From Gammaproteobacteria bacterium (GTDB lineage: Bacteria; Pseudomonadota; Gammaproteobacteria; GCA-002705445; GCA-002716945), in contig CBFHLA010000001.1 in NCBI GenBank assembly GCA_965656575.1, forward strand, positions 1-62,432: a DNA stretch of 62,432 bases, in the 5' to 3' direction. Of the stretch, positions 3,879-62,432 are shown piece by piece; position 1 is the first letter of the stretch; every line of letters starts with the position of its first letter. The notes under the pieces are model-generated. The model searched no databases. It was given only the letters and a program-made list of their open reading frames with translations, and was not told the DNA's origin. The translations under genes were made by a program, and so were the position numbers.

Positions 3879-3880
3879 TT

Positions 3881-23082: not shown

Positions 23083-23107
23083 TATGTATATATAAAACAA
23101 AAATAAA

Positions 23108-45025: not shown

Positions 45026-45056
45026 ACCTTAAAAATTAGTGATTCTCCTTAATTAT

Positions 45057-45068
45057 TTGTATATTAAT
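45057..45068 (+). promoter_or_regulatory. recurrent motif TTGTATATTAAT (copy 6)
   Basis: Lies 23 nt upstream of ATG 45080. Confidence 0.35.
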
Positions 45069-45079
45069 AATATAATATT

Positions 45080-46966: not shown

Positions 46967-46968
46967 TT

Positions 46969-49761
46969 ATGGCAAAAGTTAAGATAAATAAATTACCAAA
47001 AGGTTTTGAATTAGTTGATGGTAAAGTAAAAAAGAAAGCTATCAAAAGAGATGGTGGTCTTGTTACTGGTGATCAAGCTGATTATGGTTTAGTAACATCT
47101 CCTCAAGATTACTATGGTGGTACAAGTTTTAATGATGAAAATGATCAATCTGTAAGATATAGTTTATCCAGTGTACCTAGAGAAGATGCTAATATTGAAG
47201 CAGAAGGTGGAGAAACTGTTTTAACTGATTTAAATGGCAATGGTCAATTTGGTCTTTATAATATTACAGGTCCTAGACATTCACAAGGTGGTGTTCCTAT
47301 GTACTTACCCGAGCAGTCCTTTATATTTTCTGATACTAATGCAATGAAGATGGATAGATCTGAGTTAGCAGAGTTTGGTATTGAATCTAGAAAGAAAAAG
47401 ACACCAGCAGATGTATCTAAAAAATTTAAGTTAAATGAATACTTAGCGCAAATAAATGATCAGTATGCAGATGAAATATCTACAAGAAGTGCTGACATGA
47501 TGTTAAGTAAAAATATGAAAAGTTTATCAAAGCTTGCTTTTGGACAAGAACTAAAAAAAGGTTTTGAAGATGGTGTGCCATTAGCTGCATATCCATATTT
47601 ACAAGAACAGGGTATTGACCCAATTGAATTCACAGCTCAAATAGAAGAACAATCTAGACAACAAGCTGAACTTAATTTTATTGCATCATTGCCACCAGAG
47701 CAACAAGATCAAATTTTGCGTTTACAAGCTATGATGCAAAATATTGAAAATCCTGATGCAGGTTTAACACAAGATTCATCACAAGAGTTGGCATTGACAA
47801 ACTCACAAGGAGCACCTAATGAAGCAGATGTAGCAATTGCAGATCAAGAACTTACAGCTACACTTAAAAAAGGAGGAGAGTTATTAAAAGCTCAAGCAGG
47901 TACTGAAGTAAGAATACCAGGTTCTGATCAACCACAGGATGGAGAAACATATAATGACTATTATAAGAGAATTGGTGATAAAGCATCTGTAAGGGAGGAT
48001 GCTCAAGGGTCATATGTATATGATTCAGAGTTAGGTGTATTTTTACCTACACAATATAAAGAACAAAGTAGACAAGAAGAAACCCAACAAACAACTGCTG
48101 AAAATGCTGATGGTAAAATTACAAGAGCTCAAGCAGAAGAAATAAATCCTCTTCCAATAGGACATTCTAAAAGAGAGTTGTTTACTGAAAAATTAATGAA
48201 AGGATATCAATTAGTTGAATCTAGAGATGAGGTAAATGGAAAAACAAATTACAAATTAATTGAACCTGCAGCACCAAGTTTATTTGAAGATTTTAGTGAA
48301 TACAAACAGCAAAGTATTGATGTACAAGGTAGAGGTGAAATACCAATTACAGATGAAGTTACAAATGAGTTGATAGAAGTTTATGAAGGATTTCCTGATA
48401 ATGCTAGGATCAGAAAAGGTATTTACTCAGGTCAAAATAGACCTGAAGTTCAAACTTCAATGGGTACTGATTCAAACTCATTTGGTGCAGATCTTAATAC
48501 AGATATAGCAGAAAAAGATTTTATGTTAAGATGGGGAGATGCTGCAAGTAAAGTTCCTGGTTTTGATTATAATATGCCACAAGGAAGATGGAGTGGTAAC
48601 AATCCTTTAGATGCACAAGCAAAAGCTTATAAAAAACAATGGACTGCTATGCAAAATGCAATGCAAGAAGTTGAAAATGAATTTGCAAAGAAAAATAATT
48701 TAGAACCTAGAGTATTATTTCCAGGTGATAGACCCGGTAGTAGTGTAGATGGAAAACTTGGTTTAGATACATTTAACAAAGCTAGAAGTTATATTAGAAC
48801 TAAAGATCAAGAAATTTTAGAAGAAGAAGTTAAAGATACACTAGAACCAAGAGATCCAAATACTTTTGAGACACCAAAGCAAGAAAAACCACAATGGTGG
48901 TGGCAAGATCTTAATAACCTTGCAACACAAGCTTCTTTAGAAAATCCATTGTTCTTACCAAACATCCCTAAAGTACCTAATGAAGAAATTGATTATGTAT
49001 TGGATGATTGGACAGGTAGAGCAAATATGACTAATGCAGCATTAAATACAATGGCTCAGAATCTTAGGGCTTTTGGTAAAGGTAAAGTTGCAGGATCTAA
49101 TTTATTTGGTAAAGCTGTTGGTCAACTTGCAAAAGATGTTGGTGCAGTAAATACAAACAATATACGAATTATGAACAGTGTTGCATTGCCACAAGCACAG
49201 CTTAATTTAAGAACTGGCGTTGCAAATGCACAAGCATATAAAGATGAGTATGATAGTACAGTTACGGCCTTACAAAGATATGTTGATTTTGAAAATTGGG
49301 ATAAACAAAAAACAAATGAGCTTTATAATCAAGCTATAACTAATAGAGCTAATACATTTAATATGAATCAGCTTAAAGATATTTACAAAGCCGACCCATC
49401 TGCAGGTGGTATTGAATCTCAAAAGTATGCCAAACCATATGAAGTAGATACGGATGATAGAACCGATCAACAAAAAAGGATGGATATGTATATTCAAACA
49501 AGAGATAGGTTAATAGAACAATATCCAGATATGCCTGAAGAAGATATAGAAAACCGTGTAGATTATTTGTTAACAGGTCAAACTGGTTCACGCAAAAAGA
49601 GAAGTCAAAATTATAATGATTTTGAAAGCGGTAGTAATCCCAATGCTTCTGGTTTAACTAGTAATGCACCTTCTGTAAGAACAGATGGATTAACAGGAAG
49701 AAAAGGAAAAGAATTAAAACCATTTGCTTATCCATTTTATACGGGTAAGATGGGTATGTAA
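46969..49761 (+). CDS. large virion/ejection-type protein (930 aa)
   Basis: ORF track. KKGGEL motif at 47866-47883. No catalytic motif recognised. Confidence 0.6.
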   Translation: MAKVKINKLPKGFELVDGKVKKKAIKRDGGLVTGDQADYGLVTSPQDYYGGTSFNDENDQSVRYSLSSVPREDANIEAEGGETVLTDLNGNGQFGLYNITGPRHSQGGVPMYLPEQSFIFSDTNAMKMDRSELAEFGIESRKKKTPADVSKKFKLNEYLAQINDQYADEISTRSADMMLSKNMKSLSKLAFGQELKKGFEDGVPLAAYPYLQEQGIDPIEFTAQIEEQSRQQAELNFIASLPPEQQDQILRLQAMMQNIENPDAGLTQDSSQELALTNSQGAPNEADVAIADQELTATLKKGGELLKAQAGTEVRIPGSDQPQDGETYNDYYKRIGDKASVREDAQGSYVYDSELGVFLPTQYKEQSRQEETQQTTAENADGKITRAQAEEINPLPIGHSKRELFTEKLMKGYQLVESRDEVNGKTNYKLIEPAAPSLFEDFSEYKQQSIDVQGRGEIPITDEVTNELIEVYEGFPDNARIRKGIYSGQNRPEVQTSMGTDSNSFGADLNTDIAEKDFMLRWGDAASKVPGFDYNMPQGRWSGNNPLDAQAKAYKKQWTAMQNAMQEVENEFAKKNNLEPRVLFPGDRPGSSVDGKLGLDTFNKARSYIRTKDQEILEEEVKDTLEPRDPNTFETPKQEKPQWWWQDLNNLATQASLENPLFLPNIPKVPNEEIDYVLDDWTGRANMTNAALNTMAQNLRAFGKGKVAGSNLFGKAVGQLAKDVGAVNTNNIRIMNSVALPQAQLNLRTGVANAQAYKDEYDSTVTALQRYVDFENWDKQKTNELYNQAITNRANTFNMNQLKDIYKADPSAGGIESQKYAKPYEVDTDDRTDQQKRMDMYIQTRDRLIEQYPDMPEEDIENRVDYLLTGQTGSRKKRSQNYNDFESGSNPNASGLTSNAPSVRTDGLTGRKGKELKPFAYPFYTGKMGM

Positions 49762-49820
49762 ACATTAAAGGTTTATTTATATTAGTTGGTAAACTTTATA
49801 AATATTAGTAAATTTGAATT

Positions 49821-52800
49821 ATGGCAACGTATATAAAAGGAGAGAAGAATTTTTACCCGGACATTAAACCTTTTACCCCTGATTATAAGTTTCTTAATGC
49901 TACATTAGATGCAAGAGAAGCAAAATATCAAGCGGGTTGGCAGGCCACTAATGATCTGTATAGTAGAATATATTCTGATTTGTCTAGAGAAGACACTAAA
50001 GATTTTCAAAAACACTTTATTGAAAAGTTAGCGCCAGAAATGCAAAAGATTTCAGGTCTTGATTTATCTATTGCCAAAAATGTAGATGCAGCTAAAGGTG
50101 TATTTGCTCCTTTTTTTGAAGATGATCTTGTAGTAAAAGACATGGTTTATACTTCAACATATAAACAACAGATGCGATATGCTGATCAACTTGCACAAAG
50201 CCCTATACAAGAAGTAAGAGAAAAATATAATCCTATTGCTACAGAAGCAATGAACTATAGATTGCAAGAGTTTCAAAATGCATCTGCAGGTCAAGCATTA
50301 GGAATGAGGCTTCCGGAGTTTGTTGAAGATCCTGATATACCAACTTTAGGTCAAAAGTATCTTCAAGATCTTGGTTATAAGTTTGAAGAGTATGACAGAC
50401 TTCAAGACACTTCAGGACCTGACGGTATACCAGGAACAAAAGATGATACACCTAATAAATGGATTATTACTGAAAAAGGTGGTAAACGTGTTGAGATAGA
50501 TGCTTATAATCAAATTATGTCTGGTTTATATGATGACCCTAGAGTTACTAAGTGGTATAATACAAAAGCATATGTAGATTCTAAAAGATATGCAACTCAA
50601 GCTTCTCAAGATGGAAGTATTTCAGAGCAACAAGCTATGAATGATTGGGCTAAAGAACAAGTTTTTAGACTTGATGAACTTAATAGATCAAAAATTAACA
50701 ATACAAAAGAAGAAATAAAATCAACTAATGATGTTGTAGTAAAATGGGATAACTTTTCTTCTAATAAAGGTTTAACGCCTGCAGAGCAACAGCATGTTGA
50801 AAAAGAAAAATCATATGCTGAACAATTACAAGCAGATTTAGAAAAAAGAATTGGTGTTCAAAAAATAGTTGAATCACCAGATATTGATGATCAAGCCCTT
50901 ATGTCAAAAGCATATTCAATGTTATCTAATTATTATATGGATCAGGATATGCGTAGAGCGGCTTATAATTTTAGTAATTTAGAAAGATCATTAAAAATTA
51001 AAGAAGATCCGTTTACTCTTCAAGATGAAAAATACAAATATGAGCTTCAGAAAATTAGAGTAAAAGCTTGGTATGATAAAGAACTAGAAGATATTAAGCA
51101 AGAAGATAGGCTAGAGCTAGCAGAATTTGAAAGAATAGCTGATATAGAAAAGTTACAGCTTGAGGGTAAAATAGCTGGTCAAGATGCTTTAGCCAATGTA
51201 AGAGGTCAGTCTGGATTTGATTATTCGTCTCCTTTTTCTTCAACGTATCAAATGAAAGATGGTAAGTTTGTGAATGTAGATCCTATAAAAGCAAATAATA
51301 TAGCAATTGCTGAAAAAGAATCACAAATTACTTCTGAAAAAGTAGGTTTGTTGGGAGATATGTTATCTGTTAGATATCAAAATCCTGATAATAAATATAG
51401 TATAAAGCTTACAAAAGAAGACGGAACACAGTTTGATTTTACAGGTACACCATTAGAAATATCAAATGAGTTAAAAAAGAAAAAAAGAATTGAAGAAGAT
51501 GGTGTAGTTATTGAAACAGATCAATTTCAATACTATCAAGATATTGTAAAACTATTTGATGAACAATCAAAGTGGTTTGAAAATAGAGATAAAGTTTATC
51601 AAGAAAAAACTCCTGAGTATCTTCAACCTGGAGGTAGATATGATAAAATTTATAATCAATTATTTAGACAAGATCCTCAAGACTATGAAAAGTCAGGTTT
51701 AGTTTTAAGAGAGGATTTATTTAATAAAACAGTTGCAGAAAATGCAGCAACATTTTATGACGCAGGAAAAAATGCAGCAACAGCTTTACAAGAAAGTGAT
51801 AATACCTTTGATGAACTTGTAAAGCAAGGGTATCCATTACCATATACAGAAGAGAATGGTGTAAAAAAATTCATGAATAAAAAAGAATACATGGATCTTT
51901 TTAGAGAGGAAGCTAAAGCAGGTAAGATAAAAAACTTTGACCCTTCTGGTGTAAACAAAGCAAGTGATGGAGATGATGATCCAAATTGGAAAGATGGGGA
52001 ATTTAAAACTATGCCGGGTGCGGCTGGCGGTCTTCCAACATTTATATATGTACCAGAAGCATGGGATTATGATGCTATGGATGGTAAGTCATCATACATT
52101 TGGGACAAGATAAAAGAATACATTGTTAAAGAACAAAACGTTGTTCCATCTAAAACCTTTATTTCATTAGATAGGGGATTGGGTTCAGCTAGCACTACAG
52201 ATATAGGTTTTGTTGCTACAGAAACTGTACGTACAGATAATAATCCTGAAAAAGGAACTAGAGGAAATGAATTACTTGCTACATCTATTTATCAACAACA
52301 AGTATCTGGTAAGGCTGGTGGTTTAGGTACTCAAGTTATTATGAGGCCTGATGATACAAGTGTTATAGAAAATTTAAATATAGGTGAAGGTGTTCAAAAA
52401 ACTGATACTCAAAAAGCCTCTGAATTTTTACTAAATATTTTACAGGGATCTCAATCAAAAACTGGTGAATTTAGTTTAACTTATTTTCCAAATTTAGGAC
52501 CAAGAATATTTGATGATGAAGGTGAAGAAGTTAGAACTCCAACTGCTGCATATCAATATTCTGATTTTAGTCCTGAGTTAATTAAGACTTTAACTAATAG
52601 TAATAATTTACCAGAAAACGTAAGTCTGGAAGCAATGAAAAAAGTATTGGGTAACGGTGTAATGGTTGTATTTGATAGAAATACAGATGTAAATCCAGGA
52701 GCATATGATAATTCAAGACAATCTTTTATTGAAAAACAAATAGATTTATCTCCAAATCAAAGCTATACTTATACAGGAAAAGGAAGTATGTTTAGTCCAG

Positions 52801-53159
52801 GAGAAGCAACTATATTTAAAACAAAACCCAATGAGTTTGTTGTACGTTATCAACTTAATGAATTTGACCCTAATTCTACAGATATAAATAAACAATATAA
52901 AACATATGCTCAAAATGAAGTTGTGTTATCATATGATGAAAGCTTAGATTTTTCACAAGATTTAAATAAAAGATTTAGTGAAATTATGGATGCATTGGAT
53001 AGACAGAATGTTCAAAATAATCTTATGGAAATGCAATCTAGAGCTGCAAATTTAACTGAAGAAAGTTGGATTAATGAATATATGAGAAAAGTTCCTGGTG
53101 CTACAAAAGAAAATGCGAAATTAGCATATGAGCAGACCATGGATAATCTTAAAAAATAA
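49821..53159 (+). CDS. large virion/ejection-type protein (1112 aa)
   Basis: ORF track; charged, coiled-coil-rich; no motif recognised. Confidence 0.6.
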   Translation: MATYIKGEKNFYPDIKPFTPDYKFLNATLDAREAKYQAGWQATNDLYSRIYSDLSREDTKDFQKHFIEKLAPEMQKISGLDLSIAKNVDAAKGVFAPFFEDDLVVKDMVYTSTYKQQMRYADQLAQSPIQEVREKYNPIATEAMNYRLQEFQNASAGQALGMRLPEFVEDPDIPTLGQKYLQDLGYKFEEYDRLQDTSGPDGIPGTKDDTPNKWIITEKGGKRVEIDAYNQIMSGLYDDPRVTKWYNTKAYVDSKRYATQASQDGSISEQQAMNDWAKEQVFRLDELNRSKINNTKEEIKSTNDVVVKWDNFSSNKGLTPAEQQHVEKEKSYAEQLQADLEKRIGVQKIVESPDIDDQALMSKAYSMLSNYYMDQDMRRAAYNFSNLERSLKIKEDPFTLQDEKYKYELQKIRVKAWYDKELEDIKQEDRLELAEFERIADIEKLQLEGKIAGQDALANVRGQSGFDYSSPFSSTYQMKDGKFVNVDPIKANNIAIAEKESQITSEKVGLLGDMLSVRYQNPDNKYSIKLTKEDGTQFDFTGTPLEISNELKKKKRIEEDGVVIETDQFQYYQDIVKLFDEQSKWFENRDKVYQEKTPEYLQPGGRYDKIYNQLFRQDPQDYEKSGLVLREDLFNKTVAENAATFYDAGKNAATALQESDNTFDELVKQGYPLPYTEENGVKKFMNKKEYMDLFREEAKAGKIKNFDPSGVNKASDGDDDPNWKDGEFKTMPGAAGGLPTFIYVPEAWDYDAMDGKSSYIWDKIKEYIVKEQNVVPSKTFISLDRGLGSASTTDIGFVATETVRTDNNPEKGTRGNELLATSIYQQQVSGKAGGLGTQVIMRPDDTSVIENLNIGEGVQKTDTQKASEFLLNILQGSQSKTGEFSLTYFPNLGPRIFDDEGEEVRTPTAAYQYSDFSPELIKTLTNSNNLPENVSLEAMKKVLGNGVMVVFDRNTDVNPGAYDNSRQSFIEKQIDLSPNQSYTYTGKGSMFSPGEATIFKTKPNEFVVRYQLNEFDPNSTDINKQYKTYAQNEVVLSYDESLDFSQDLNKRFSEIMDALDRQNVQNNLMEMQSRAANLTEESWINEYMRKVPGATKENAKLAYEQTMDNLKK

Positions 53160-53170
53160 ACTAGCATAAT

Positions 53171-56100
53171 ATGTCAGAGTTAACAAACAATTTACCAAAT
53201 CCGGATTTTGATTTGCAACAACGAATTGTACAAGATTCAGTTGACATGAATCCTATTGATACATCTGTTCCTTACCAATCTATAGATGATATACTACCTG
53301 AATTGAATAACCCTATAGATGATCAGTACATGAAGCAAATTGATATGTACAGAACTGAAATGGATAAAGTAGGTCCTAATGCTATTGGTAATATGTTTAT
53401 GGATAAACTAACTCCTGGTTTATCAACTAGTACAGAACCGCAAAGAAATTTATCTATTGCTGAGCAACTTCAGCAAAAGTTAAAAGAACCTTTGGTATCA
53501 GATGCAGGCACGTTACCTAACCCAATATGGAGTAATGTAAGACAAATTAATTTTGATAGACAATATAATAGTGATGCTTTTGCAGATATAGGTTTTGCTC
53601 CTTATGCGGACATGGATGCTGTATTTAATAAAAACATGACTGGTTATGATGGGTTCCAAAGAGGTTTTAAACAATTTGGCAATCTATTTTACACAGGTTT
53701 TGCATCTAGTTATAGATCTATTGCGGATATATTTGATGGTGATAGTTATTGGGAAGATCCAGATTTAACTTCAGCACAAGAAATGGAAGATGCCATGAGA
53801 ATTGGTGGTAGTACAGACGGCAGCTTAGGTGGTTGGTTTGGTAACCTTGGTTTAAACTTTGGTTATACAGCAGGTATTGTAGCATCTATTGCCGCTGAAG
53901 AAGCAATATTAGCAACTGGTGCTGCCCTTGCAGCTATACCAACTGGTGGTGGTAGTTTAGCTGCATTTATTGCTGCACAAGCAAGATTTATACCCAGAAT
54001 AAAAAAAGCTGTTGATTTTACAGTTAGGGGAACTACATTTGGTAGAGGTGCAAAAGCATCTTATGATTTTGTAAAACAAATATCTCAAGTAGAAAGAGCA
54101 AGAGATTTATTTAATGCTGCTCAACTTGGTAGAGGTATGAATACTGTATTTAGAACAATTGCTCCAGAAACTTTATATGCAATTAAAAATTGGAAGACTG
54201 CAAAAAATACTGCACAAAATACAATCAATCTTGCTAAGATTTCAAATATGTTTGGTGCATTCTATAGAGATTTTAGAATGGTTAATGCTTCATTGTCTGA
54301 GTCCAAAATGGAAGCAGGTATGGTTTACAATCAAGTTTTAAATAATGGTTTAGCTGAAGCAAATTATAAAAATCAAGGTGGGGGTGTAACAGAACAGCAG
54401 ACTAAAGATATAATGATTAAAGCTGCTGAGGCATCCTTTAAAGCTCAGATGGCAAATTTTGCTGTTATATATGCTTCTAACAGAATTGTTTTAAAAAATG
54501 CATTTGGTGGCTGGAGAAGACAAGTTACTAACTCAAACAGAATTCTACGTAAAGATGCATTTACAGCAGTAAAGGGAAGTAAATATTTAATAAAGAGAAT
54601 ACCACAAGAACTTAAATTAGCTTTTAATAGAGCCGGTTACAAAGGAGCTGCTAAAGTTATGGGTACTCAGATGTTAAGATATGGTGCTGCTAATTTAGCG
54701 GAAGGTGCACAAGAAATATCTCAAGAAGCAATTTCTGCTGCAACTGTTGGTTACTATAGTTCATTGTTAAGAGATCCTTTAAGTGGTGGCCCATCAACTC
54801 TTGCGGGTTATGTTGGTCAATCAACTTCTAATCTTGCATCAAAAGAAGGCTTAAGTGTTTTTCTTTCAGGATTTTTAATGGGTGGTTTAGCTGGTCCTTA
54901 TCAGCAAGTTTTGTTTCAGGGTTTACCTGCTATTGGTAGGAGTGCATATGCAAAAGCAAACACAAAATTTGGTGATGGTACACAATCAAACTACGCCAAA
55001 GAATATAGTCAAAGAAGAGAACAAGTATTAGATGATATTGTAAAACAAATTAATGAGCGTGGTGAAATGATGAAACAAGATTTAGAATCTGTGCTTTCAC
55101 CATCTCAATTTCAAGCTATATTACAAAAACAAAATTTTTCTGAGCAAAGCATTGCATTTGCAGATAATGATAAATATGATTTTGATAATGCACAGTTTGC
55201 TGCACAGTTTTTTAATTTGTATTCAGCATATGAAAGAGGCTCTATAAAATTTGCAAGAGAAAGTTATGTTGAGTTTAGTAAAATGTCAGATAAAGATCTT
55301 GCAGAAGCATTTAATCCAAAAGAGTTTGGAAAACCTGAGAAGGTAAGAAAACGTATTCAAAAACAAATTAATTTGATAGATGAATATGGTGAGACTTTTG
55401 CTAATAAATTACCTAAAGTATTTGATAAAACTTTTAACTATGAAAATTTAACTGCTGGTAGTCCAGAGTATTTAAACTTACAAAGAGAAGAACAAGCATA
55501 TAAACATAATAAAATGCTTTATATGTTTACTAATGAAGCTTATAAAAATGCTGTAGAAAGACAAGCAGCTATAGAGACATCATTAGAAACAGAACCTTTG
55601 TTTGCTAAACAAGCAAGTTCTGATATAAGAATACTATATAACAAAGAAAGTATAGACCAAGAGTTAACCTTGCTAGATGCCGAGATTAAAGCTGCGGAAG
55701 AAGCAGGAGAATCTAAAACAGTAATTAACAAAAAGAAAAATAAAAGGAAAGCTTTACAGAAGTATGCTGATGTTATTAATGATCCTAAAAATATAACTAA
55801 AAAAGGAAACATAAGCAGGAGACAAGGTACAGTAAATAAAGTTAGATCTGCATTTAAAAACTATATACAAGTTCTTGCAGAAAATAATTCTGACTTTGTT
55901 AATCAAGATTTAGTTGATGATGCAGTTGCAAAAATTGTAGATCATAGCGCACTTAGATCTGATGCAGCATCATTTTCTAGGTCTATTGATTTTATGACTA
56001 ATCCTACTAAGCAACAAGAAATTGCCGATAGATCAAAACAATACTATGAATGGTTGTATAAAAATAGAGATGCAGTAGTAAAAGAAGCAGCCGCTAGGTA

Positions 56101-59100
56101 TTTAGATACACAAAAAAAGAATGAACTAATTAATTTGTTATATGAAAAGGATGTTGCTATAGAGCCTACCTTAGTTAGGAAATATTTTGCTGGTGAAATA
56201 ACAGAAAAAGATTTACTTGCTTTATTACTACAAGGAAACAAAGGAGCATTTTTTATTGATGGTAAATTACTTAATGATAGATTAGAACAAGATGCTAAAC
56301 TGATTAAAGAGGTAGCAAGTGTACTTGCCGGATTTGTTCAATTAGATCAACAAATTAAAGCACAAGAAGAAAAAGAATCTCCACAAGCAGTTCAGGCAGA
56401 AACTATTTTAGATGTTGAAGATAAATTAGAAGATGCAGGTATTCAAATAAATATTGGAGACATAAATACTTCAAAAACTTTAAAGTCTATTTTAGAAAAA
56501 GAATACCGTAAATATAGAGCTAACACAAAAGATAACATTTTAACTCCAGAGCAATGGAGAAAGACAACAAATGCAACTAACATTGTTGCTGCGTTATCCG
56601 CATTAAAAAGAATTTGGGCTACAGGATATGATACCATTGTAGTTCAAAATGGTCAAGAAACAGCTGTTAAAGTTAAACCTACACAACAAGAGATAGAAAG
56701 TGAAATTGGTTTTCAGAAGTTTTTAGATAGTAGAGAAGCAATTGAAAATCCTTTAGTACAATCTATAGTAAATGACTATGGATTAAATATGGGTATTTTT
56801 TCTAGATCTAATACAGGTCAAGCTGCTGTTCAACCTATTAGTGGTATGGACGGTGTAGCATTTAAGGGTGTAAGAAGATCATCTGCACAAGGAGAGTTTG
56901 TAGAAATTGTTGATGCAAACGGTAATTCTCTTTCTAATGAAATGTTAGAAATAATCAATAGACCTTTGGGTGCTACTTTTAGTTCTATGGAAGAAGCTAA
57001 AGTTGCATTTGATACCCTTGAAAGAGAGTATTCAGATGGTACAACATTTAGATTTGATGGTATGTCATTAAGTAAAGGTATATCAGTATTTAGTAAAGTA
57101 GCTATAGATGATCATCCCGTTGGTACTGAGTTCATAATTAATAGTAATCCTAAGCATGCATCTAGAGGTACAGTATCTTTAGTACCTGCAGATAGATGGA
57201 CAAATAATTTCAATGCTAGAAAAGATGCTGCTATTTATGAAAGTGAATTAGATTTTTCTAAAAGATTTGAGACAGAACAAATTAGTTTTACAGTATTATC
57301 TGCTGATGCCCCTAAAGTTTCTACACAAGATCCTGTTGTAATATATTCACCAAGAGCATTAGATAGAGAGACAGGTGAAAAACAACTTGCACTTATTGGT
57401 GCATCTTTAACAGAAGATCAATTATTAAATGGTGTTATAATTAATATTTTACCAAATGATAAATCATATGAGGATCCTTTTATAATTAATGGTATTAGTA
57501 ATCCATATATAAGAAGAAAGAATGAAAGGGTAACATTACAAGTTGCTATTGCTGATCCTGTTTTAAGAAATGATTTAAATCAAAAACTTACAGATGCAAA
57601 CCTACCAACTATACCAGAAAATGGAGAAATAGGTTATATACCCGCTGAGTCAATTATATTTAAAGATGATAAAGGAAATCAAATCCTTCCATCACAAATG
57701 ACCCCTGAATTTGCATCAAATGTTTTTGTACCACAGAAAGGTAAAACTATTGAGCAAACTTTAGAAGAGGCTAAAATTAATTTTGCTAAACAAGATTTAT
57801 TATTAAATACTGTTGAAACATTAATAGGTGAAGAACAAAATGTAATTAAGATTGGTCAATTACCTGAAGGTTTTCAAATAAGAAACTTTAGTGGTTACCC
57901 TGATTATGATGGTAGCAATCCTTTAATACCATTATCTGAATTACCTTATGCAGCTAATGATAGAGGTGATGTATTAATATTTGATATTACAAGAGCAGCT
58001 GATGGTTCAATGATTGATTATGAAACATACTCTAACATAACAGATCCAGATCAGAAAGCAGCATTAGTAGCAGAAGTTGAAGAAGGCTTAAATTTACCTA
58101 TTGGAGGTCAAAGCATTAGTTTGTTTGATAAGATGATGGGACCTGATACTTTTAACTATACCGAAAGATATCAGTATGTAGTTAGACAACCTAATGGTAC
58201 TTATACTCTAGCTACAGCAAAAACTACAGGATTATCTAAAGATGTATTAGAAGGTGTAATGCTTGATATGAAAACTCAAGCAGAAAAAACTAGACAAGAA
58301 AATTTAGTTACTTCTAAAAACATCAGCAAATACCCCGGTAAAAAAGTTGGTGATTATATAAATGCTGATTATAATACTGTATTTAATAATGATACAAATA
58401 AAAAGTTTAGGGTTAACATGCCTAAAGGATTTAATTTGAATATTACAGTAGATCCTTGGGGTAAAATTAGAGGAGAAATTTATCAAAATGGTGTAGGGCG
58501 AGTTGGTAAATATCAATATTTATATGAAGCAGATTTAAATAAAGAAGGTTCTAATATTTCTAAATTAGAACAATTACTAGCTAAACTTACAGAGCAGAGT
58601 GCGGCTAAAGATATAAATGTTACAATAAACAATTTTACTACCAGTGTACCATTAAATGCATCTGTTAATGAGATGTTAGATAGTTTATCTACAAAACTAT
58701 CACCTCAAATTAGAAGAGGCGGTTATTTTTATTTAAATGCTGATTCTGCTATGGTGCAAGCTGCCATAGATAAAGCTGCAAATGTTAACAGACCCGATAA
58801 TGTAGAACCAAAAAAATCCATAAGTCAGGGTCAGAAAGCTAAGATAGATAATCAAGAAGCTGATATATTAAGTAGATTAGCAGAAGATCAAGTTGACGCA
58901 AGAGATGAGGTTGCTGCTGAAGCTGATAGAGCACGTGCAGGTGAAGTATCTGATGTTGTTTGGGAAGGATTTATAAATGATCCAACAACAGTTCAGAAAC
59001 AACTGATAGATTCTATAGCACAGAAACTTATAGCTGGTGTACCTCTTACAGAAAGAGAGCAAGCAATTAGACAAGAAAGATCCATTGCACCACAGATAGA

Positions 59101-62100
59101 AGAATATTTAAAGGGTCAAATGGCCGAAGAGCAAAAAAAATCAATTGATTTAACTGCTCTTGCTGCAACACCAATTGATGTTATTAATTCTAAGATTAAA
59201 GAGTTAGAAGAACAAATAGTAGCTGAAGTAGGTTGGAAAAACAAAAGAAAAGCTCTTAAGGAAAATAAAGAATATCAAAGTTTACTACAAGAAAGAGAAA
59301 GACTTTTAAAACCAGGGAATAAAGTTTTACCAGCAGGTTATTCTGTAAGTGATTTAGAAAGTTTAGAAGACTTTTTACTTTGGGCACAAGATAACTTACC
59401 TGAGTTTATTACTGTAGCTGATATAAAACAATTAGGTAATAACCTTAAAGCAGGTGGTAAAAGAGTTGGTGCATTTGTTTTAGACTTAAATGGTTTAGCT
59501 GGTGGTTTAACTACAGGTGGTACGATATATACAGGTGCAACAAATCCTTTTAGATATCATGAAGCTTTCCATGGTGTATACAGAATGCTACTTTCACCAG
59601 AAGAGCAAAAGCGTTTGCTTGCAATTGCTAAGAAAGAAAAGAGAGCACAATTAAGAAAAGAAGGTAAGAGTCTTCAAAAAGAGTTAATTAAATTTAGAAA
59701 CTCTGCGGATACTTATACAAATATGACTCAAGAACAACTTGAGAGAGAGTATTATGAAGAGTATATGGCGGATCAGTTTGAGTTATTTAAAGCTAATCCT
59801 AAAGATACTAAAACAAACAGTTCAATAAAATCATTCTTTAATAGAATAATTGAATGGATTAAAGCTGTGTTTGAATCATACTCAAAAACAGAGTTGCAAA
59901 CTTTGTTTGAAAATATTGATGCTGGTAAATATGCAAATGCTACTGTTGTAGCAAATGACTTTACTATGCAGGCAGGACCGGCTATTACAATTGCGAATGC
60001 ATTGTTGCCATATGAAGCTGTACAAGTAAATGGCTCTAAAGGAAGATTATATTTAGATTCTAATATTGCTAATAATCTAGCTTTAACTATTGCTGCCAAC
60101 TATATTAATAGAAGAAAGGATCCAAGGTTTTATCTTAATGATGAAGGTAAACAAAAAACAAATGAAGAGATTATAGAAGAACTGCTAAATGACTTTTCAG
60201 ATTTATATGATCCTAATAATCCTGCAAACCAAAAGTTCTTAGCAACAGATACACCAACTAATCAATTAAGATATGATAAGTTAGTTCAGATATATCAAGC
60301 AATAAATTTTGATTTATTTGCTGATGTAAAAAACCAACCTATCTATAAGGCTGTTATGGATGTGCTTGATATTATAGACGTTCAGAAACAACAGCAAGAG
60401 TTATCAGAAGATGATTATGAAAATCAAGATGGTCTTAGAAATGTAACACAGTTTGGTAAAGAAGCTTATATGAATGGTGGTTTTAGTTCACTACCTACAT
60501 ATATTAGAAGTTACTTGGCAACTATAACTAAAGAACAAACTGATATTTTTGGTAATGTAGAACTTACAGAAGGGGAACCTTTGATTGTACCTATAGATGT
60601 ATATAGTGTCTATAATGGAATATTAAAATCTGTAAAATCAAAAGAAGATCCTTTAGAGATTTTACAGGCAATGTATTTATTTTCTCAAGACAATCCTAAT
60701 ACTAAAGGTGTTGTTAAAAAGATGTTTGAGGATATAGGAATACCTTACGGTGTTGATGTTAGTCAAATGACTTTACCTGAAAACATTAAAGATCCTTTAT
60801 TATTTAATCAGATAACAAAAGCATTTACTAACTTTAGAGTAGAGTGGTTATTCCAACAAATGGATGAATCAGGAAATGTAATAACATATTCTGCTGCAGA
60901 AAGGGATGATATACACACCCAAATAGATCTTTGGGGTCAAGCATATATAACATTAAGTCAACAGTGGTTACTTGATAAAAGAAAAAAGAAAGAAGCTACA
61001 GATTCTATCAAAGCTTTTAGAGCTCAATTATTAGGAACAGAGACTATTGAAGATGCTGCTATGCAAAATTTGTCTGTAAGCATAGCTCAAAATCTTTTTG
61101 ATAGTACAGGTATAAAACTTAGTCCGTTATATATAAAGTATAGTATTATTAGATCTAGAGGGGCAGGATCATCTAATCAACAATTGTTATTAGACTTTAA
61201 TGAAACATCAGATCCAGTTACAGCAGAAGATCTTTATTTTATAAATGACTTGATAGTCAAAGATGTAGATCTATATTCTGAATATGGTGCTACATCTAAG
61301 ATTAGAAAAATGGCAATCAATAATGCTGTATTTGATGAGTCAATTGGATTATCAGTATTTACTAATGTAAATGGTGATATGGTTAATGCACACCAGAAAC
61401 CCACATTTAATCTTAAAAGAGTTGCAGCACTTAATAAAATAAGTGAAAGACAAAAATTACTTAACTCAGTATTTTTAAGTTCTAATTACCTATTAAACAA
61501 TCCTGCTTTTGAAAGCATGGCTAATAGTAACCTTTTATCTATTAAAAGAATTTCAGGTACTAAATTAGTTGAAACGCTAGATAGAGAGTCTGATTATGAC
61601 GCGTTTATAGAAGGTATCTTAAATACAACTGAGTATGGTAGTTATACACCGAAGCAATTTATAACAAACCTTATTAACAATTATACGTTAGACTTTAATC
61701 CTAAAAACAATAAATTAAAGAGTGAGGTTACAATTGAAACTGAGTCAGGTGGAACAGAGATTGTAGCTACAGCACCTTTACTTATTAGAGTATTAGAAGC
61801 ATCTAACACTGGTGATTTAGCATCACTACCGGTTATAAAAGCTGTATCTGGTAAGGACGCAGCTATTACTACAGAAGTGTTAAACGTTGTATATGACTCT
61901 ATAGAAAATGAGTACAACCGTATCAAAAGAGAAAATAATGATGAAACAAAAACTCTTGATGATATTGTTGGATATAATGTAGGAGAAGTTCAAAGAGCTA
62001 ATACTTTATTTAATAGTGAGGCATTTTTCTTAGGAGATAATGTACAAGTTAAATCACAACTAGAAATGTCTGCAATGAATCAAGATCAAGACATTTCATT

Positions 62101-62432
62101 TGATCAAGCCGTAAAACTTGCAGGTTTTTCTAAATCTCAGTTTTTAGATAAAATAATAAGAACAAGTTTAGAAGCTAAGTATAATAGATTTGAAGCTCTT
62201 ATAGAACAATATGAAATAAATGATTTAATTAACAATGACCTTAAGAAAGGTATTGTATTAGATAAAAAGGGTGAGGCAAGAGCTTTATCTATTAAGGCTG
62301 CTGAAGCACTTAATTTAAGAGCTGATCAGAGATATAACTTAAGACAAGTATTCTTTAATGACTATATAAATACTAAATCACTAAATGAATTACTATTAGG
62401 AGATCAAGCTAGAATACTCAAAAATAGTATAG
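53171..62432 (+). CDS. giant protein, 5' partial (more than 3087 codons, runs off the window): candidate polyvalent/ejected virion protein with zincin-like metallopeptidase motif
   Basis: Not in the ORF track because there is no in-window stop. I hand-translated 53171-61020 and 62342-62431 without meeting a stop. No other long + ORF is listed here. Gly/Ala-rich hydrophobic segments at ~53821-53990 and ~54848-54940. HEAFH at 59558-59572. Confidence 0.85.
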   Translation, partial: MSELTNNLPNPDFDLQQRIVQDSVDMNPIDTSVPYQSIDDILPELNNPIDDQYMKQIDMYRTEMDKVGPNAIGNMFMDKLTPGLSTSTEPQRNLSIAEQLQQKLKEPLVSDAGTLPNPIWSNVRQINFDRQYNSDAFADIGFAPYADMDAVFNKNMTGYDGFQRGFKQFGNLFYTGFASSYRSIADIFDGDSYWEDPDLTSAQEMEDAMRIGGSTDGSLGGWFGNLGLNFGYTAGIVASIAAEEAILATGAALAAIPTGGGSLAAFIAAQARFIPRIKKAVDFTVRGTTFGRGAKASYDFVKQISQVERARDLFNAAQLGRGMNTVFRTIAPETLYAIKNWKTAKNTAQNTINLAKISNMFGAFYRDFRMVNASLSESKMEAGMVYNQVLNNGLAEANYKNQGGGVTEQQTKDIMIKAAEASFKAQMANFAVIYASNRIVLKNAFGGWRRQVTNSNRILRKDAFTAVKGSKYLIKRIPQELKLAFNRAGYKGAAKVMGTQMLRYGAANLAEGAQEISQEAISAATVGYYSSLLRDPLSGGPSTLAGYVGQSTSNLASKEGLSVFLSGFLMGGLAGPYQQVLFQGLPAIGRSAYAKANTKFGDGTQSNYAKEYSQRREQVLDDIVKQINERGEMMKQDLESVLSPSQFQAILQKQNFSEQSIAFADNDKYDFDNAQFAAQFFNLYSAYERGSIKFARESYVEFSKMSDKDLAEAFNPKEFGKPEKVRKRIQKQINLIDEYGETFANKLPKVFDKTFNYENLTAGSPEYLNLQREEQAYKHNKMLYMFTNEAYKNAVERQAAIETSLETEPLFAKQASSDIRILYNKESIDQELTLLDAEIKAAEEAGESKTVINKKKNKRKALQKYADVINDPKNITKKGNISRRQGTVNKVRSAFKNYIQVLAENNSDFVNQDLVDDAVAKIVDHSALRSDAASFSRSIDFMTNPTKQQEIADRSKQYYEWLYKNRDAVVKEAAARYLDTQKKNELINLLYEKDVAIEPTLVRKYFAGEITEKDLLALLLQGNKGAFFIDGKLLNDRLEQDAKLIKEVASVLAGFVQLDQQIKAQEEKESPQAVQAETILDVEDKLEDAGIQINIGDINTSKTLKSILEKEYRKYRANTKDNILTPEQWRKTTNATNIVAALSALKRIWATGYDTIVVQNGQETAVKVKPTQQEIESEIGFQKFLDSREAIENPLVQSIVNDYGLNMGIFSRSNTGQAAVQPISGMDGVAFKGVRRSSAQGEFVEIVDANGNSLSNEMLEIINRPLGATFSSMEEAKVAFDTLEREYSDGTTFRFDGMSLSKGISVFSKVAIDDHPVGTEFIINSNPKHASRGTVSLVPADRWTNNFNARKDAAIYESELDFSKRFETEQISFTVLSADAPKVSTQDPVVIYSPRALDRETGEKQLALIGASLTEDQLLNGVIINILPNDKSYEDPFIINGISNPYIRRKNERVTLQVAIADPVLRNDLNQKLTDANLPTIPENGEIGYIPAESIIFKDDKGNQILPSQMTPEFASNVFVPQKGKTIEQTLEEAKINFAKQDLLLNTVETLIGEEQNVIKIGQLPEGFQIRNFSGYPDYDGSNPLIPLSELPYAANDRGDVLIFDITRAADGSMIDYETYSNITDPDQKAALVAEVEEGLNLPIGGQSISLFDKMMGPDTFNYTERYQYVVRQPNGTYTLATAKTTGLSKDVLEGVMLDMKTQAEKTRQENLVTSKNISKYPGKKVGDYINADYNTVFNNDTNKKFRVNMPKGFNLNITVDPWGKIRGEIYQNGVGRVGKYQYLYEADLNKEGSNISKLEQLLAKLTEQSAAKDINVTINNFTTSVPLNASVNEMLDSLSTKLSPQIRRGGYFYLNADSAMVQAAIDKAANVNRPDNVEPKKSISQGQKAKIDNQEADILSRLAEDQVDARDEVAAEADRARAGEVSDVVWEGFINDPTTVQKQLIDSIAQKLIAGVPLTEREQAIRQERSIAPQIEEYLKGQMAEEQKKSIDLTALAATPIDVINSKIKELEEQIVAEVGWKNKRKALKENKEYQSLLQERERLLKPGNKVLPAGYSVSDLESLEDFLLWAQDNLPEFITVADIKQLGNNLKAGGKRVGAFVLDLNGLAGGLTTGGTIYTGATNPFRYHEAFHGVYRMLLSPEEQKRLLAIAKKEKRAQLRKEGKSLQKELIKFRNSADTYTNMTQEQLEREYYEEYMADQFELFKANPKDTKTNSSIKSFFNRIIEWIKAVFESYSKTELQTLFENIDAGKYANATVVANDFTMQAGPAITIANALLPYEAVQVNGSKGRLYLDSNIANNLALTIAANYINRRKDPRFYLNDEGKQKTNEEIIEELLNDFSDLYDPNNPANQKFLATDTPTNQLRYDKLVQIYQAINFDLFADVKNQPIYKAVMDVLDIIDVQKQQQELSEDDYENQDGLRNVTQFGKEAYMNGGFSSLPTYIRSYLATITKEQTDIFGNVELTEGEPLIVPIDVYSVYNGILKSVKSKEDPLEILQAMYLFSQDNPNTKGVVKKMFEDIGIPYGVDVSQMTLPENIKDPLLFNQITKAFTNFRVEWLFQQMDESGNVITYSAAERDDIHTQIDLWGQAYITLSQQWLLDKRKKKEATDSIKAFRAQLLGTETIEDAAMQNLSVSIAQNLFDSTGIKLSPLYIKYSIIRSRGAGSSNQQLLLDFNETSDPVTAEDLYFINDLIVKDVDLYSEYGATSKIRKMAINNAVFDESIGLSVFTNVNGDMVNAHQKPTFNLKRVAALNKISERQKLLNSVFLSSNYLLNNPAFESMANSNLLSIKRISGTKLVETLDRESDYDAFIEGILNTTEYGSYTPKQFITNLINNYTLDFNPKNNKLKSEVTIETESGGTEIVATAPLLIRVLEASNTGDLASLPVIKAVSGKDAAITTEVLNVVYDSIENEYNRIKRENNDETKTLDDIVGYNVGEVQRANTLFNSEAFFLGDNVQVKSQLEMSAMNQDQDISFDQAVKLAGFSKSQFLDKIIRTSLEAKYNRFEALIEQYEINDLINNDLKKGIVLDKKGEARALSIKAAEALNLRADQRYNLRQVFFNDYINTKSLNELLLGDQARILKNSI
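59558..59790 (+). other. zincin-like signature HEAFH ... EREYYEEYMADQFE inside the giant ORF
   Basis: In-frame HExxH preceded by GGTIYTGATNPFRY. About 60 residues downstream comes an EExMADxF segment that could supply the third (Glu) ligand. Confidence 0.45.

What the first reader, a model, noticed from the sequence alone, without database searches (positions are those of the whole stretch)
53171..62432. A >3,087-codon open-ended ORF that the supplied ORF track does not show
From ATG 53171 the reading frame stays open to the last base of the window, 9.26 kb or about 15% of the window. I translated 53171-61020 and the final 90 nt by hand and met no stop. The track lists only a 60-aa out-of-frame + ORF and short antisense ORFs in this region, as expected if the single long frame is unterminated. 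The protein begins with two Gly/Ala-rich hydrophobic stretches: GWFGNLGLNFGYTAGIVASIAAEEAILATGAALAAIPTGGGSLAAFIAAQA and GLSVFLSGFLMGGLAGPYQQVLFQGLPAIG. The rest is long and mostly alpha-helical in appearance. Phage proteins of this size are rare. The known classes are virion-packaged RNA polymerases (N4 gp50-type, crAss-like) and 'polyvalent' ejected effector proteins. I could not recognise RNA-polymerase motifs by eye, so the function is open.
Basis: seen in the sequence. Interest (0 to 1): 0.8.

Follow-up and report, generated by a model that had tools for sequence, protein, structure and literature searches.

The report
Giant crAss-type virion RNA polymerase gene
The open-ended reading frame is real and is the first two thirds of a 4,727-residue phage protein that joins an unknown helical module and a conserved metal-site motif to an RNA polymerase of the type crAss-like phages carry in their particles; this is a known class, found here in a poorly annotated marine lineage.

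Summary
Window 53171-62432 (+) has 3,087 codons and no stop, against 125-473 stops in the other five frames. An independent assembly that differs at 3 of 9,262 bases continues the frame to a TAA, giving 4,727 aa.

The protein is a homologue of the crAss-type two-barrel virion RNA polymerase, phi14:2 gp66 (PDB 6VR4). A 52-member family profile matches gp66 at E 1.2e-17, and no shuffled control scored above 0.6 bits. The catalytic DFDID motif is invariant but sits at residue 3617, beyond the window, which ends at about gp66 residue 890.

The window encodes three parts:
- a conserved all-helical N-part (about residues 1-2010), which is a separate gene in related phages;
- an invariant HExxH...EE domain (about 2040-2300), a candidate zincin that was not assignable to any peptidase family;
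- the polymerase's N-terminal domains, whose AlphaFold model matches predicted crAss-like polymerase structures at E down to 2.5e-15.

The gene order mirrors phi14:2 g067-g066-g065. Giant and fused crAss polymerase genes are already described, so this is a new member of a known kind. Every public copy is labelled 'hypothetical protein'. Interest is about 0.3.

The parts
53171..62432 (+). Open-ended ORF: residues 1-3087 of a 4,727-aa protein (P0001). The stop codon lies 4,922 nt beyond the window end.
53558..56170 (+). Conserved N-module (about residues 130-1000). It is all alpha-helical in the AlphaFold model. All 74 relatives share it, including 1,750-2,650-aa proteins encoded by a separate gene just upstream of the polymerase gene in other phages. 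It has no Pfam, PHROG, PDB or Foldseek match.
53831..53983 (+). Gly/Ala-rich hydrophobic stretch 1 (residues 221-271). It is conserved and carries a conserved internal Glu-Glu; its hydropathy is borderline.
54848..54937 (+). Gly/Ala-rich stretch 2 (residues 560-589), with the motif FxSGFLMGG whose G, F, G and G are invariant. Its hydropathy is below the transmembrane range.
56171..59200 (+). Less conserved middle and C-terminal part of the N-part (about residues 1001-2010). The last 500 or so residues match the C-terminal end of the separate 1,552-aa protein of Leptolyngbya phage Lbo-JY46, which places the fusion junction at about residues 2000-2040.
59288..60070 (+). HExxH domain (about residues 2040-2300), a candidate gluzincin-type metal site. 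In split-gene relatives it forms the N-terminus of the polymerase protein.
59558..59572 (+). HEAFH (residues 2130-2134). It is present in all 52 proteins of the giant family (4,400-5,260 aa, plus one 3,263-aa member) and in two split-gene polymerases.
59756..59761 (+). Invariant Glu-Glu (residues 2196-2197) within 'EEYMADQFE', the candidate third metal ligand.
60071..62432 (+). N-terminal non-catalytic domains of the two-barrel RNA polymerase, equivalent to about residues 1-890 of phi14:2 gp66. The window ends just before or at the first barrel.

Best explanation
The ORF is the 5' 65% of a single 14.2-kb gene for a 4,727-aa virion cargo protein. It fuses (i) an N-part of about 2,000 residues that is a separate gene in related phages, (ii) a conserved domain of about 260 residues carrying HExxH and a downstream Glu-Glu, and (iii) a crAss-type single-chain two-barrel DNA-dependent RNA polymerase homologous to phi14:2 gp66. 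The polymerase's barrels and catalytic DFDID lie beyond the window end.

Shown here: homology to gp66, the conserved motifs, the architecture, and synteny with the crAss-like transcription block.

Inferred from phi14:2, crAss001 and N4: the protein is packaged in the capsid and extruded through the tail, at least partly unfolded, ahead of or with the DNA. Inside the cell it then transcribes the early genes independently of the host polymerase. The N-part, with its conserved Gly/Ala-rich hydrophobic segments, would play the packaging and translocation role that the N-terminal domain plays in N4 gp50. The HExxH domain would act as a metallopeptidase, either in processing or activating the polymerase or on the cell envelope.
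For: BLASTP of P0001 residues 3573-4005 against gp66 1317-1757 gives E 2e-13. The 52-member family HMM matches gp66 collinearly: P0001 2891-3227 to gp66 681-1040 (6e-14) and 3574-4080 to gp66 1318-1839 (1e-15), the second covering DFDID, the bridge helix and the trigger loop. The whole-protein E-value is 1.2e-17 at PDB-sized Z, and 200 shuffles plus the reversed sequence all score 0.6 bits or less. The gp66 sequence is chain 6VR4_A.

tblastn of the DFDID region hits genes annotated as RNAP catalytic subunit in crAss002, cr112_1, the PhiCrAssBcn phages and others, down to 1e-13. 'SGADFDIDK' is conserved across the family, with I or V at position 4 as the gp66 paper reports for all crAss-like polymerases.

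The AlphaFold model of window residues 1900-3087 (pLDDT 73.7) matches 21 BFVD models of crAss-like giants at E from 2.5e-15 to 4e-6. These include piece 1 of the phi14:2 protein S0A2C3 (1,090 residues, which fits half of gp66; E 1.1e-11, 990 columns) and the 'putative RNA polymerase' of cr111_1.

Synteny: TerL, portal, MCP, an IHF-like gene, tail genes, a chain of giant virion-protein genes, then this gene. The next gene downstream is gp65-like (E 3e-9), reproducing the phi14:2 order g067-g066-g065. Split versions exist, with the N-module gene immediately followed by an HExxH-plus-DFDxD polymerase gene.

The upstream giants are homologous to virion proteins of Cellulophaga phage phi4:1 that were verified by mass spectrometry. 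Published work shows that gp66 is packaged in the virion and transcribes early genes, that its neighbours are virion proteins, and that fused polyproteins occur in some phages. crAss001 stores its polymerase-associated proteins in the capsid.
Against: No experimental data exist for this phage. Packaging, ejection and activity are inferred by homology. Identity to gp66 is only about 23% over the alignable parts. Foldseek of the window model against the PDB did not retrieve 6VR4. Neither the single-sequence search nor a 10-member profile search of PDB sequences found it; only the 52-member profile and BLASTP do. The N-part has no detectable similarity to phi14:2 gp67, so 'gp67-like' is a statement about position only. 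The HExxH domain cannot be assigned to any peptidase family.
Confidence: 0.85

Rival explanations
1. Self-processing polyprotein. The HExxH domain is an active zincin that cleaves the 4,727-aa precursor at or near the N-part/polymerase junction (about residues 2000-2040), in the capsid or after ejection. This would release or activate the polymerase. It refines the best explanation and is compatible with it.
For: HExxH and a Glu-Glu 62-63 residues downstream are invariant across a family that diverges to 25% identity, and also in two distant split-gene polymerases. The domain sits exactly at the junction: in split relatives the polymerase protein begins with it. The best PDB profile hit is a zincin, the Pro-Pro endopeptidase 6FPC, with the HExxH aligned, at E 0.016. 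The gp66 paper proposes cleavage of fused polyproteins and a zincin role in polymerase activation.
Against: E 0.016 is marginal. There is no Pfam zincin hit for any of 19 members. The AlphaFold confidence just upstream of the HExxH helix is below 50, and Foldseek finds no peptidase fold. In split relatives there is nothing to cleave at that junction, yet the domain is retained. No cleavage site is known.
Confidence: 0.3
2. The HExxH domain acts on the host instead: it is an envelope or peptidoglycan peptidase, or it attacks a host protein, and helps the cargo cross the cell wall, as the enzymatic domains of internal virion proteins of other podoviruses do.
For: The gp66 paper offers this alternative for the gp65 zincin. 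The gp65 HExxH region has weak tblastn similarity (E 0.09-0.9) to KP34-type 'internal virion protein with endolysin domain' or DNA ejectosome components and to N4-like virion polymerases. The window domain shares three collinear short motifs with the gp65 N-terminus and the crAss002 gp32 C-terminus, seen by eye.
Against: All these similarities are below significance. No peptidoglycan-peptidase family matched.
Confidence: 0.25
3. The protein is a polyvalent ejected effector or toxin, and its polymerase-like part is vestigial.
For: Some relatives carry extra effector-type domains: ART-PolyVal PF18760 (P0023), DUF1768/YbiA (the P0050 cluster) and helicase domains (P0074). BFVD matches include crAss proteins named after ART-PolyVal or helicase domains.
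Against: P0001 itself has no such domain. The catalytic motif and many surrounding residues are invariant across 52 members, which indicates selection for catalysis. The extra domains occur only in the variable C-terminal tail.
Confidence: 0.03
4. The protein is an N4 gp50-type virion polymerase, that is, a T7-like single-subunit enzyme.
For: It has a similar size class and a similar order of parts: an N-terminal domain that may be membrane-active, followed by a polymerase.
Against: There is no match to any T7-like or N4 polymerase in Pfam or PDB sequences. All significant matches are to the two-barrel crAss type.
Confidence: 0.01
5. The long frame is an artefact: two or more genes joined by an assembly or sequencing error.
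For: In some related phages the N-part and the polymerase are separate genes.
Against: The same continuous frame appears in an independent assembly with 3 mismatches in 9,262 nt, and in more than 50 diverged cluster representatives. Among the best 150 representatives found with the HExxH domain, 75 have the fused architecture.
Confidence: 0.01

Closest known systems
Cellulophaga phage phi14:2 gp66, the crAss-like virion RNA polymerase (PDB 6VR4; Drobysheva et al., preprint 10.1101/2020.03.07.982082)
   Same: Both have the DFDID catalytic motif with Ile at position 4. Both have collinear sequence homology over the regions of the two barrels, the bridge helix and the trigger loop, and a structurally similar N-terminal half. 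Both lie at the end of the virion gene block, followed by a gp65-like gene.
   Different: gp66 is a stand-alone 2,180-aa protein. Here about 2,000 residues of N-part and an HExxH domain are fused upstream, and a variable tail of about 450 residues follows. Identity is about 23%. gp66 has no HExxH. In phi14:2 the zincin motif is in gp65, downstream of the polymerase.
Bacteroides phage crAss002 gp32 and gp33, both annotated 'putative RNAP catalytic subunit'
   Same: gp33 is a giant polymerase gene of 4,245 aa at the end of the late block, with DFDID. An HExxH (HEGVH at gp32 residue 1814) lies just upstream of the polymerase start, the same relative position as here.
   Different: The fusion pattern differs. 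In crAss002 the polymerase is fused to the gp65-like part, and the upstream protein that carries the HExxH is a separate gene. Here the upstream part and the HExxH domain are fused to the polymerase, and the gp65-like gene is separate.
crAss001 cargo proteins gp47, gp49 and gp50 (Bayfield et al. 2023, PMC10172136)
   Same: They are large, mostly helical, polymerase-associated proteins stored in the capsid and thought to be extruded partly unfolded. This is the likely fate of the protein found here.
   Different: crAss001 has three separate chains of 155-277 kDa; this is one chain of 4,727 residues (about 0.5 MDa by residue count, my estimate). No direct sequence comparison was made here.
Coliphage N4 gp50 virion RNA polymerase (PMC13434306)
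   Same: The order of parts is analogous: an N-terminal domain implicated in ejection or membrane insertion, then the polymerase, in one giant ejected chain.
   Different: N4's polymerase is a T7-like single-subunit enzyme and this one is a two-barrel enzyme. There is no detectable homology.
The 1,552-aa and 2,748-aa proteins of Leptolyngbya phage Lbo-JY46 (PP438436.1), and the virion proteins gp035-gp042 of Cellulophaga phage phi4:1
   Same: These two phages give the best isolate matches for the portal (32% and 25% identity). They have the same chain of giant virion genes. The Lbo 1,552-aa protein is homologous to the N-part (E 5e-22), and the C-terminus of the Lbo 2,748-aa protein is gp65-like.
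   Different: No DFDxD motif and no polymerase-profile match was found in the giant genes of either phage that were inspected. The N-part homologue there is followed directly by the gp65-like giant.

Membership tests
crAss-type virion two-barrel RNA polymerase (gp66 family) | DFDxD metal-binding motif with Ile or Val at position 4 | tested here: met
   DFDID at P0001 residues 3617-3621. A DFD[IV]D motif is present in every full-length member of the 52-protein family; the one member without it (P0038, 3,263 aa) ends before that region. The feature is defined. It lies outside the window.
crAss-type virion two-barrel RNA polymerase (gp66 family) | Significant collinear sequence homology to gp66 over both barrel regions, the bridge helix and the trigger loop | tested here: met
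   BLASTP E 2e-13. HMM domain matches at 6e-14 and 1e-15. Whole-protein E 1.2e-17 at Z = 177,635, with clean shuffle controls.
crAss-type virion two-barrel RNA polymerase (gp66 family) | Structural similarity of the N-terminal half to gp66 and crAss polymerases | tested here: met
   Foldseek against BFVD gave 21 crAss-like hits, with the phi14:2 S0A2C3 piece 1 at E 1.1e-11. Caveat: Foldseek against the PDB did not return 6VR4.
crAss-type virion two-barrel RNA polymerase (gp66 family) | Two double-psi beta-barrel folds in one chain | not tested
crAss-type virion two-barrel RNA polymerase (gp66 family) | Position at the end of the virion or late gene block, next to other giant virion-protein genes, with a gp65-like gene downstream | tested here: met
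crAss-type virion two-barrel RNA polymerase (gp66 family) | Presence in the virion and rifampicin-resistant transcription of early genes | not testable with these tools
   This needs a cultured phage, virion proteomics and transcription assays.
Order Crassvirales | Homologous TerL, portal and MCP, plus an IHF-like gene in the structural module; monophyly with recognised members | tested here: inconclusive
   The portal matches Crassvirales at 21-24% identity (E 1e-19 to 1e-34). It matches the unclassified phages Lbo-JY46 (32%) and phi4:1 (25%, Lightbulbvirus) better. An IHF-like gene is present. No phylogeny was made.
N4 gp50-type (T7-like) virion RNA polymerase | T7-like single-subunit polymerase domain | tested here: not met
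   No Pfam or PDB sequence match.
Zincin / gluzincin metallopeptidases | HExxH plus a downstream Glu as third ligand | tested here: met
   YHEAFH and a Glu-Glu 62-63 residues downstream are invariant in 19 diverse sequences. This is evidence from motifs only.
Zincin / gluzincin metallopeptidases | Significant match to a known peptidase family or to the zincin fold | tested here: inconclusive
   Best PDB profile hit is the 6FPC Pro-Pro endopeptidase at E 0.016 with the HExxH aligned. No Pfam zincin hit. No Foldseek hit. hhalign and HMM comparisons with the phi14:2 gp65 zincin region are not significant.
Polyvalent proteins (Iyer et al. 2017, PMC5512222; listed, the paper was not read) | Several recognisable effector domains (ART, MPTase, helicase, methylase and others) in one chain | tested here: not met
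   None was detected in P0001. Only some relatives carry ART-PolyVal, DUF1768 or helicase domains in the variable C-terminal tail.

The most novel reading that the evidence does not exclude
The invariant HExxH...EE domain, placed exactly at the junction between the N-part and the polymerase, is an autoprocessing metallopeptidase. It would cut the giant precursor and so switch on the virion polymerase, by removing the N-part or the cleft-blocking segment once the protein has been packaged or ejected. That would be the proteolytic activation step proposed but never shown for crAss-like phages. In this reading the fused form is a two-barrel counterpart of N4 gp50, with an ejection domain and a polymerase in one chain.
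Probability: 0.25. Interest if true: 0.55.

Novelty: new member of a known kind. Interest (0 to 1): 0.3.

Why it matters
The result gives a function to the largest gene of a widespread, mostly marine phage clade. At least 218 clusters at 50% identity carry the junction domain at E of 1e-10 or better, and one close variant of a relative was seen on 69 contigs. Every public copy examined is named 'hypothetical protein'.

It also shows that the crAss-type virion polymerase occurs in phages whose portal matches non-Crassvirales isolates better than Crassvirales. Those isolates are a cyanophage and Cellulophaga phi4:1, and no polymerase was found in their giant genes that I inspected.

The fusion patterns differ between lineages: three genes in phi14:2, the second and third parts fused in crAss002, and the first and second fused here. 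This marks natural domain boundaries, and it marks a conserved HExxH domain at one of them. Both are useful for designing constructs and for testing the unproven idea that these polymerases are activated by proteolysis. None of this changes the general picture of crAss-like phage biology.

Tried and rejected
Searches that found nothing for the ORF or the full-length protein:
- Pfam and PHROGs gave nothing above noise.
- tblastn of the first 3,000 aa against 50,697 phage records gave no match at 1e-5.
- phmmer of P0001 and a 10-member profile against PDB sequences did not find 6VR4. This turned out to be a sensitivity limit, because the 52-member profile finds gp66 at 1.2e-17 and 6VR4 is in the library.
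- Foldseek against the PDB gave nothing at E of 0.001 or better for either AlphaFold model.

Attempts to link the parts to known proteins:
- The N-part against phi14:2 gp67 by HMM and hhalign: no similarity. The region cut for that hhalign was also imperfect.
- The HExxH domain against the gp65 N-terminus, gp67 C-terminus and gp66 N-terminus by hhalign: probability below 1%.
- HMM scoring with shuffle controls: gp65 was not significant, and crAss002 gp32 was marginal at 4.9 bits against a shuffle maximum of 4.6.
- Pfam scan of 19 domain members: no zincin family, only weak DUF5856 hits.
- A large-database search with a gp65 fragment returned nothing.
- tblastn of the gp65 zincin region found only two significant crAss-like hits, too few to build a profile.

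Other negatives:
- A weak HMM match of P0001 1922-2040 to gp66 89-209 (iE 0.03) is probably spurious, because the collinear offset puts gp66 residue 1 at about P0001 residue 2211.
- Classical transmembrane helices are not supported by hydropathy.
- There are no tRNA genes in the window.
Full report
OBSERVATION. The frame from ATG 53171 to the last base of the window translates into 3,087 codons without a stop. The other five frames of the same 9,262 nt contain 125-473 stops. At 31.7% G+C the chance of an open frame this long is about 1e-121. The ORF list omits the frame only because it runs off the window end. A search of public proteins found P0001, which is 4,727 aa long and 100% identical over the window part. 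Its contig, L002, is an independent Logan assembly. It differs from the window at 3 of 9,262 positions and ends the gene with TAA, 4,922 nt beyond the window end. More than 50 further cluster representatives at 25-92% identity have the same uninterrupted frame of 4,400-5,260 aa.

WHAT THE PROTEIN IS. Single-sequence searches of Pfam, PHROGs, PDB sequences and deposited phage genomes were empty for the window part. Comparison within the family gave a modular map:
- an N-module at about residues 130-1000, shared by all 74 relatives, including 1,750-2,650-aa proteins;
- a less conserved stretch up to about residue 2000;
- a core at about residues 2000-4280, shared by all the giants;
- a variable tail.

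Two motifs are invariant down to 25% identity. 'YHEAFHxV[FY]R' is at residue 2130, window nt 59558-59572. 'SGADFDIDK' is at residue 3617, beyond the window.

DFDxD with Ile or Val in the fourth position is the signature of the crAss-like virion RNA polymerase. In phi14:2 gp66, each aspartate of 1361-DFDID-1365 is essential, and the protein is packaged in the virion and transcribes the early genes. The direct tests were:
- BLASTP of P0001 3573-4005 against gp66 1317-1757 gives E 2e-13.
- A 52-member family HMM matches gp66 in two collinear blocks: P0001 2891-3227 to gp66 681-1040 at 6e-14, and P0001 3574-4080 to gp66 1318-1839 at 1e-15. The second block includes the bridge helix and trigger loop.
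- The whole-sequence E-value is 1.2e-17 when scaled to the size of the PDB sequence set. All 200 shuffles and the reversed sequence score 0.6 bits or less. The gp66 sequence is chain 6VR4_A.
- tblastn of the DFDID region hits genes annotated as RNAP catalytic subunit in crAss002, cr112_1, the PhiCrAssBcn phages and others, down to 1e-13.

WHAT THE WINDOW ITSELF ENCODES. The HMM alignment puts the last window residues ('...LLGDQARILKNSI') opposite gp66 residues of about 877-890. The connector between gp66's two barrels spans residues 1095-1238. The window therefore stops just before or at the first barrel, and no catalytic motif could have been seen in it.

An AlphaFold model of residues 1900-3087 (pLDDT 73.7) found nothing in the PDB by Foldseek. 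Against predicted viral structures it gave 21 hits at E from 2.5e-15 to 4e-6, all of them giant crAss-like proteins. They include piece 1 of a phi14:2 protein whose piece length of 1,090 residues fits half of the 2,180-residue gp66 (E 1.1e-11, 990 aligned columns), and the 'putative RNA polymerase' of cr111_1. So about residues 2300-3087 are the polymerase's non-catalytic N-terminal domains.

THE N-PART. The N-module model (residues 100-1050, pLDDT 65) is entirely helical and has no structural match. In related phages the N-module protein is a separate gene immediately upstream of a giant gene. The pairs are 2,351 plus 4,207 aa (L003 and L004) and 1,797 plus 3,114 aa (L005 and L006). Those downstream genes carry YHE[AG]WH, then GSDFD[GI]DK about 1,480-1,660 residues later, and they match gp66 at 5e-14 and 2e-27.

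In Leptolyngbya phage Lbo-JY46, the best isolate match by portal at 32% identity, a separate 1,552-aa protein matches the family profile up to profile position 1983 (E 5e-22). This places the fusion junction at about residues 2000-2040.

A scan of 1.84 billion representative proteins with the 261-residue HExxH domain found 490 hits at E of 0.001 or better, and 218 at 1e-10 or better. Among the best 150, 86 carry both motifs with a median spacing of 1,524 residues. Of those 86, 75 are fused forms of 3,903-5,724 aa. The other 11 are proteins of 2,446-3,931 aa with no long N-part; in about half of them the HExxH lies within the first 220 residues. The fused form is the dominant architecture of the clade.

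Their hydropathy is borderline or low, and the first keeps an internal Glu-Glu. They are not classical transmembrane helices.

THE HExxH DOMAIN. In 19 diverse sequences, including the two distant split polymerases, the invariant residues are Y-H-E-x-x-H, a Leu, and Glu-Glu 62-63 residues downstream within 'EEYLADxFE'. This is the pattern of a gluzincin metal site. From my own knowledge, the 'ExxAxxF' helix resembles the third-ligand helix of the anthrax lethal factor and MtfA type of peptidase; that was a lead, not a test.

The best profile hit in PDB sequences is a zincin, the Pro-Pro endopeptidase 6FPC, with the HExxH aligned, but only at E 0.016. No Pfam zincin family matches any member. 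The model is low-confidence just upstream of the HExxH helix. Formal comparisons with the phi14:2 gp65 zincin region are not significant.

By eye, the window domain, the C-terminus of crAss002 gp32 and the N-terminus of phi14:2 gp65 share three collinear short motifs: HExxH, then EE[FY]xx[DE], then [FL][FL]x[KRQ]I[IW][DE]. I record this as a lead. The position of the motif differs between lineages. It is downstream of the polymerase in phi14:2 gp65, at the C-terminal end of the upstream protein in crAss002 gp32 (residue 1814 of 2,020), and inside the fused chain just upstream of the polymerase here.

CONTEXT. The window has the crAss-like late-gene layout, with every listed ORF of at least 100 aa that has a family or homologue assignment on the + strand:
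- large terminase at 9376-11568
- portal at 11584-14343
- major head protein at 15831-17450
- an IHF/HU-like gene at 19566-20045
- tail fibres
- five large genes of 2,157, 877, 628, 930 and 1,112 aa
- the giant ORF

The 2,157-aa and 877-aa proteins are homologous to virion proteins of Cellulophaga phage phi4:1 that were verified by mass spectrometry. The gene after the giant ORF has at least 821 aa in L002 and is 51% identical to a 1,918-aa gene in a Tara Oceans relative (L008). The C-terminus of that 1,918-aa protein matches phi14:2 gp65 at E 3e-9. The order [N-part plus polymerase] then gp65-like reproduces phi14:2's g067, g066, g065. The gp66 paper states that in some phages these proteins are fused into one polyprotein. 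A review cites polymerase genes of up to about 6,000 aa as a crAss hallmark. Cultured crAss002 has a 4,245-aa polymerase gene that fuses the gp66-like and gp65-like parts.

MECHANISM. Homology, motifs, architecture and synteny are shown here. The rest is inferred from phi14:2, crAss001, where the polymerase-associated proteins are capsid cargo extruded partly unfolded, and N4. On that basis the protein is packaged in the capsid, extruded through the tail at infection, and then transcribes the early genes. The N-part probably serves packaging or translocation, as the N-terminal domain of N4 gp50 does. The HExxH domain probably acts as a metallopeptidase, in polymerase processing or on the envelope. 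Both of these last two roles are hypotheses.

NOVELTY AND VERDICT. This is a new member of a known kind. The class, the giant size and the existence of fusions are all published. The additions here are modest:
- the identification itself, since every public copy examined is called 'hypothetical protein';
- the particular fusion pattern;
- the strict association of an HExxH...EE domain with the N-terminal boundary of the polymerase across a large, mostly marine clade;
- the finding that the two best-matching isolates by portal (Lbo-JY46 and phi4:1) have the N-part and gp65-like giants but no detectable polymerase in the genes I inspected.

Interest is about 0.3.

Noticed in passing
window 35919-53159: Five consecutive large + strand genes (2,157, 877, 628, 930 and 1,112 aa) precede the giant ORF. 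The 2,157-aa and 877-aa products match MS-verified virion proteins gp042 and gp040 of Cellulophaga phage phi4:1, and also the 1,654-aa and 495-aa proteins of Lbo-JY46. The 930-aa and 1,112-aa products have no PHROG match. This is probably the cargo or ejection-protein block.
   Followed up: partly
window 19566-20045: A small IHF/HU-like DNA-binding protein gene (phrog_858 and phrog_3636) sits inside the structural module. phi14:2 has the same arrangement (g073, 'IHF subunit'), and the literature describes it as typical of crAss-like phages.
   Followed up: no
L007 (Leptolyngbya phage Lbo-JY46) 20355-33261, minus strand: In this cyanophage, the N-part homologue (1,552 aa) is followed directly by a 2,748-aa protein. 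That protein has two HExxH motifs and a gp65-like C-terminus, but no DFDxD motif and no match to the polymerase profile. It looks like a polymerase-less version of the same block. All these genes are annotated 'hypothetical protein'.
   Followed up: partly
L002 about 22700-23452 (P0001 residues about 4480-4727, beyond the window): The variable C-terminal tail of the full-length protein contains three copies of a 'TQQTS(E)V' motif. The first two are each followed by a short strand-like segment. Relatives carry other modules in this tail: a second HExxH in P0020, P0022 and P0023; ART-PolyVal in P0023; and DUF7831 in P0034-36 and P0046. A DUF1768/YbiA label appears on short members of the P0050 cluster, position unchecked.
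   Followed up: no
phi14:2 gp65 residues about 240-315 (L001 998-5263, minus strand): The HExxH region of the phi14:2 gp65 zincin gives weak tblastn similarities (E 0.09-0.9) to KP34-type Klebsiella phage 'internal virion protein with endolysin domain' or DNA ejectosome components, and to virion RNA polymerases of N4-like Pectobacterium phages. This may hint at a shared peptidase module among ejected proteins. It is not significant.
   Followed up: no
window 32422-33645 and 7367-8182: Two nuclease genes lie inside or beside the structural block: an SbcD/Mre11-like 'DNA repair exonuclease' (phrog_704, E 6e-44) and another exonuclease (phrog_298). phi14:2 likewise has metallophosphatase genes (g063, g075) in its late block.
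   Followed up: no
window 1-62432: Every ORF of at least 100 aa that has a family or homologue match is on the + strand. No tRNA gene was found. G+C is 32.5%. No stop-codon reassignment is needed to read the giant ORF, unlike some crAss-like lineages.
   Followed up: partly
window 938-2263 and 24715-28380: There are two tail-fibre-like genes. The first has hits to collagen-like and tail-fibre PHROGs. The second (1,221 aa) matches 16 PHROG families, ten of them tail-fibre or tail-protein families.
   Followed up: no
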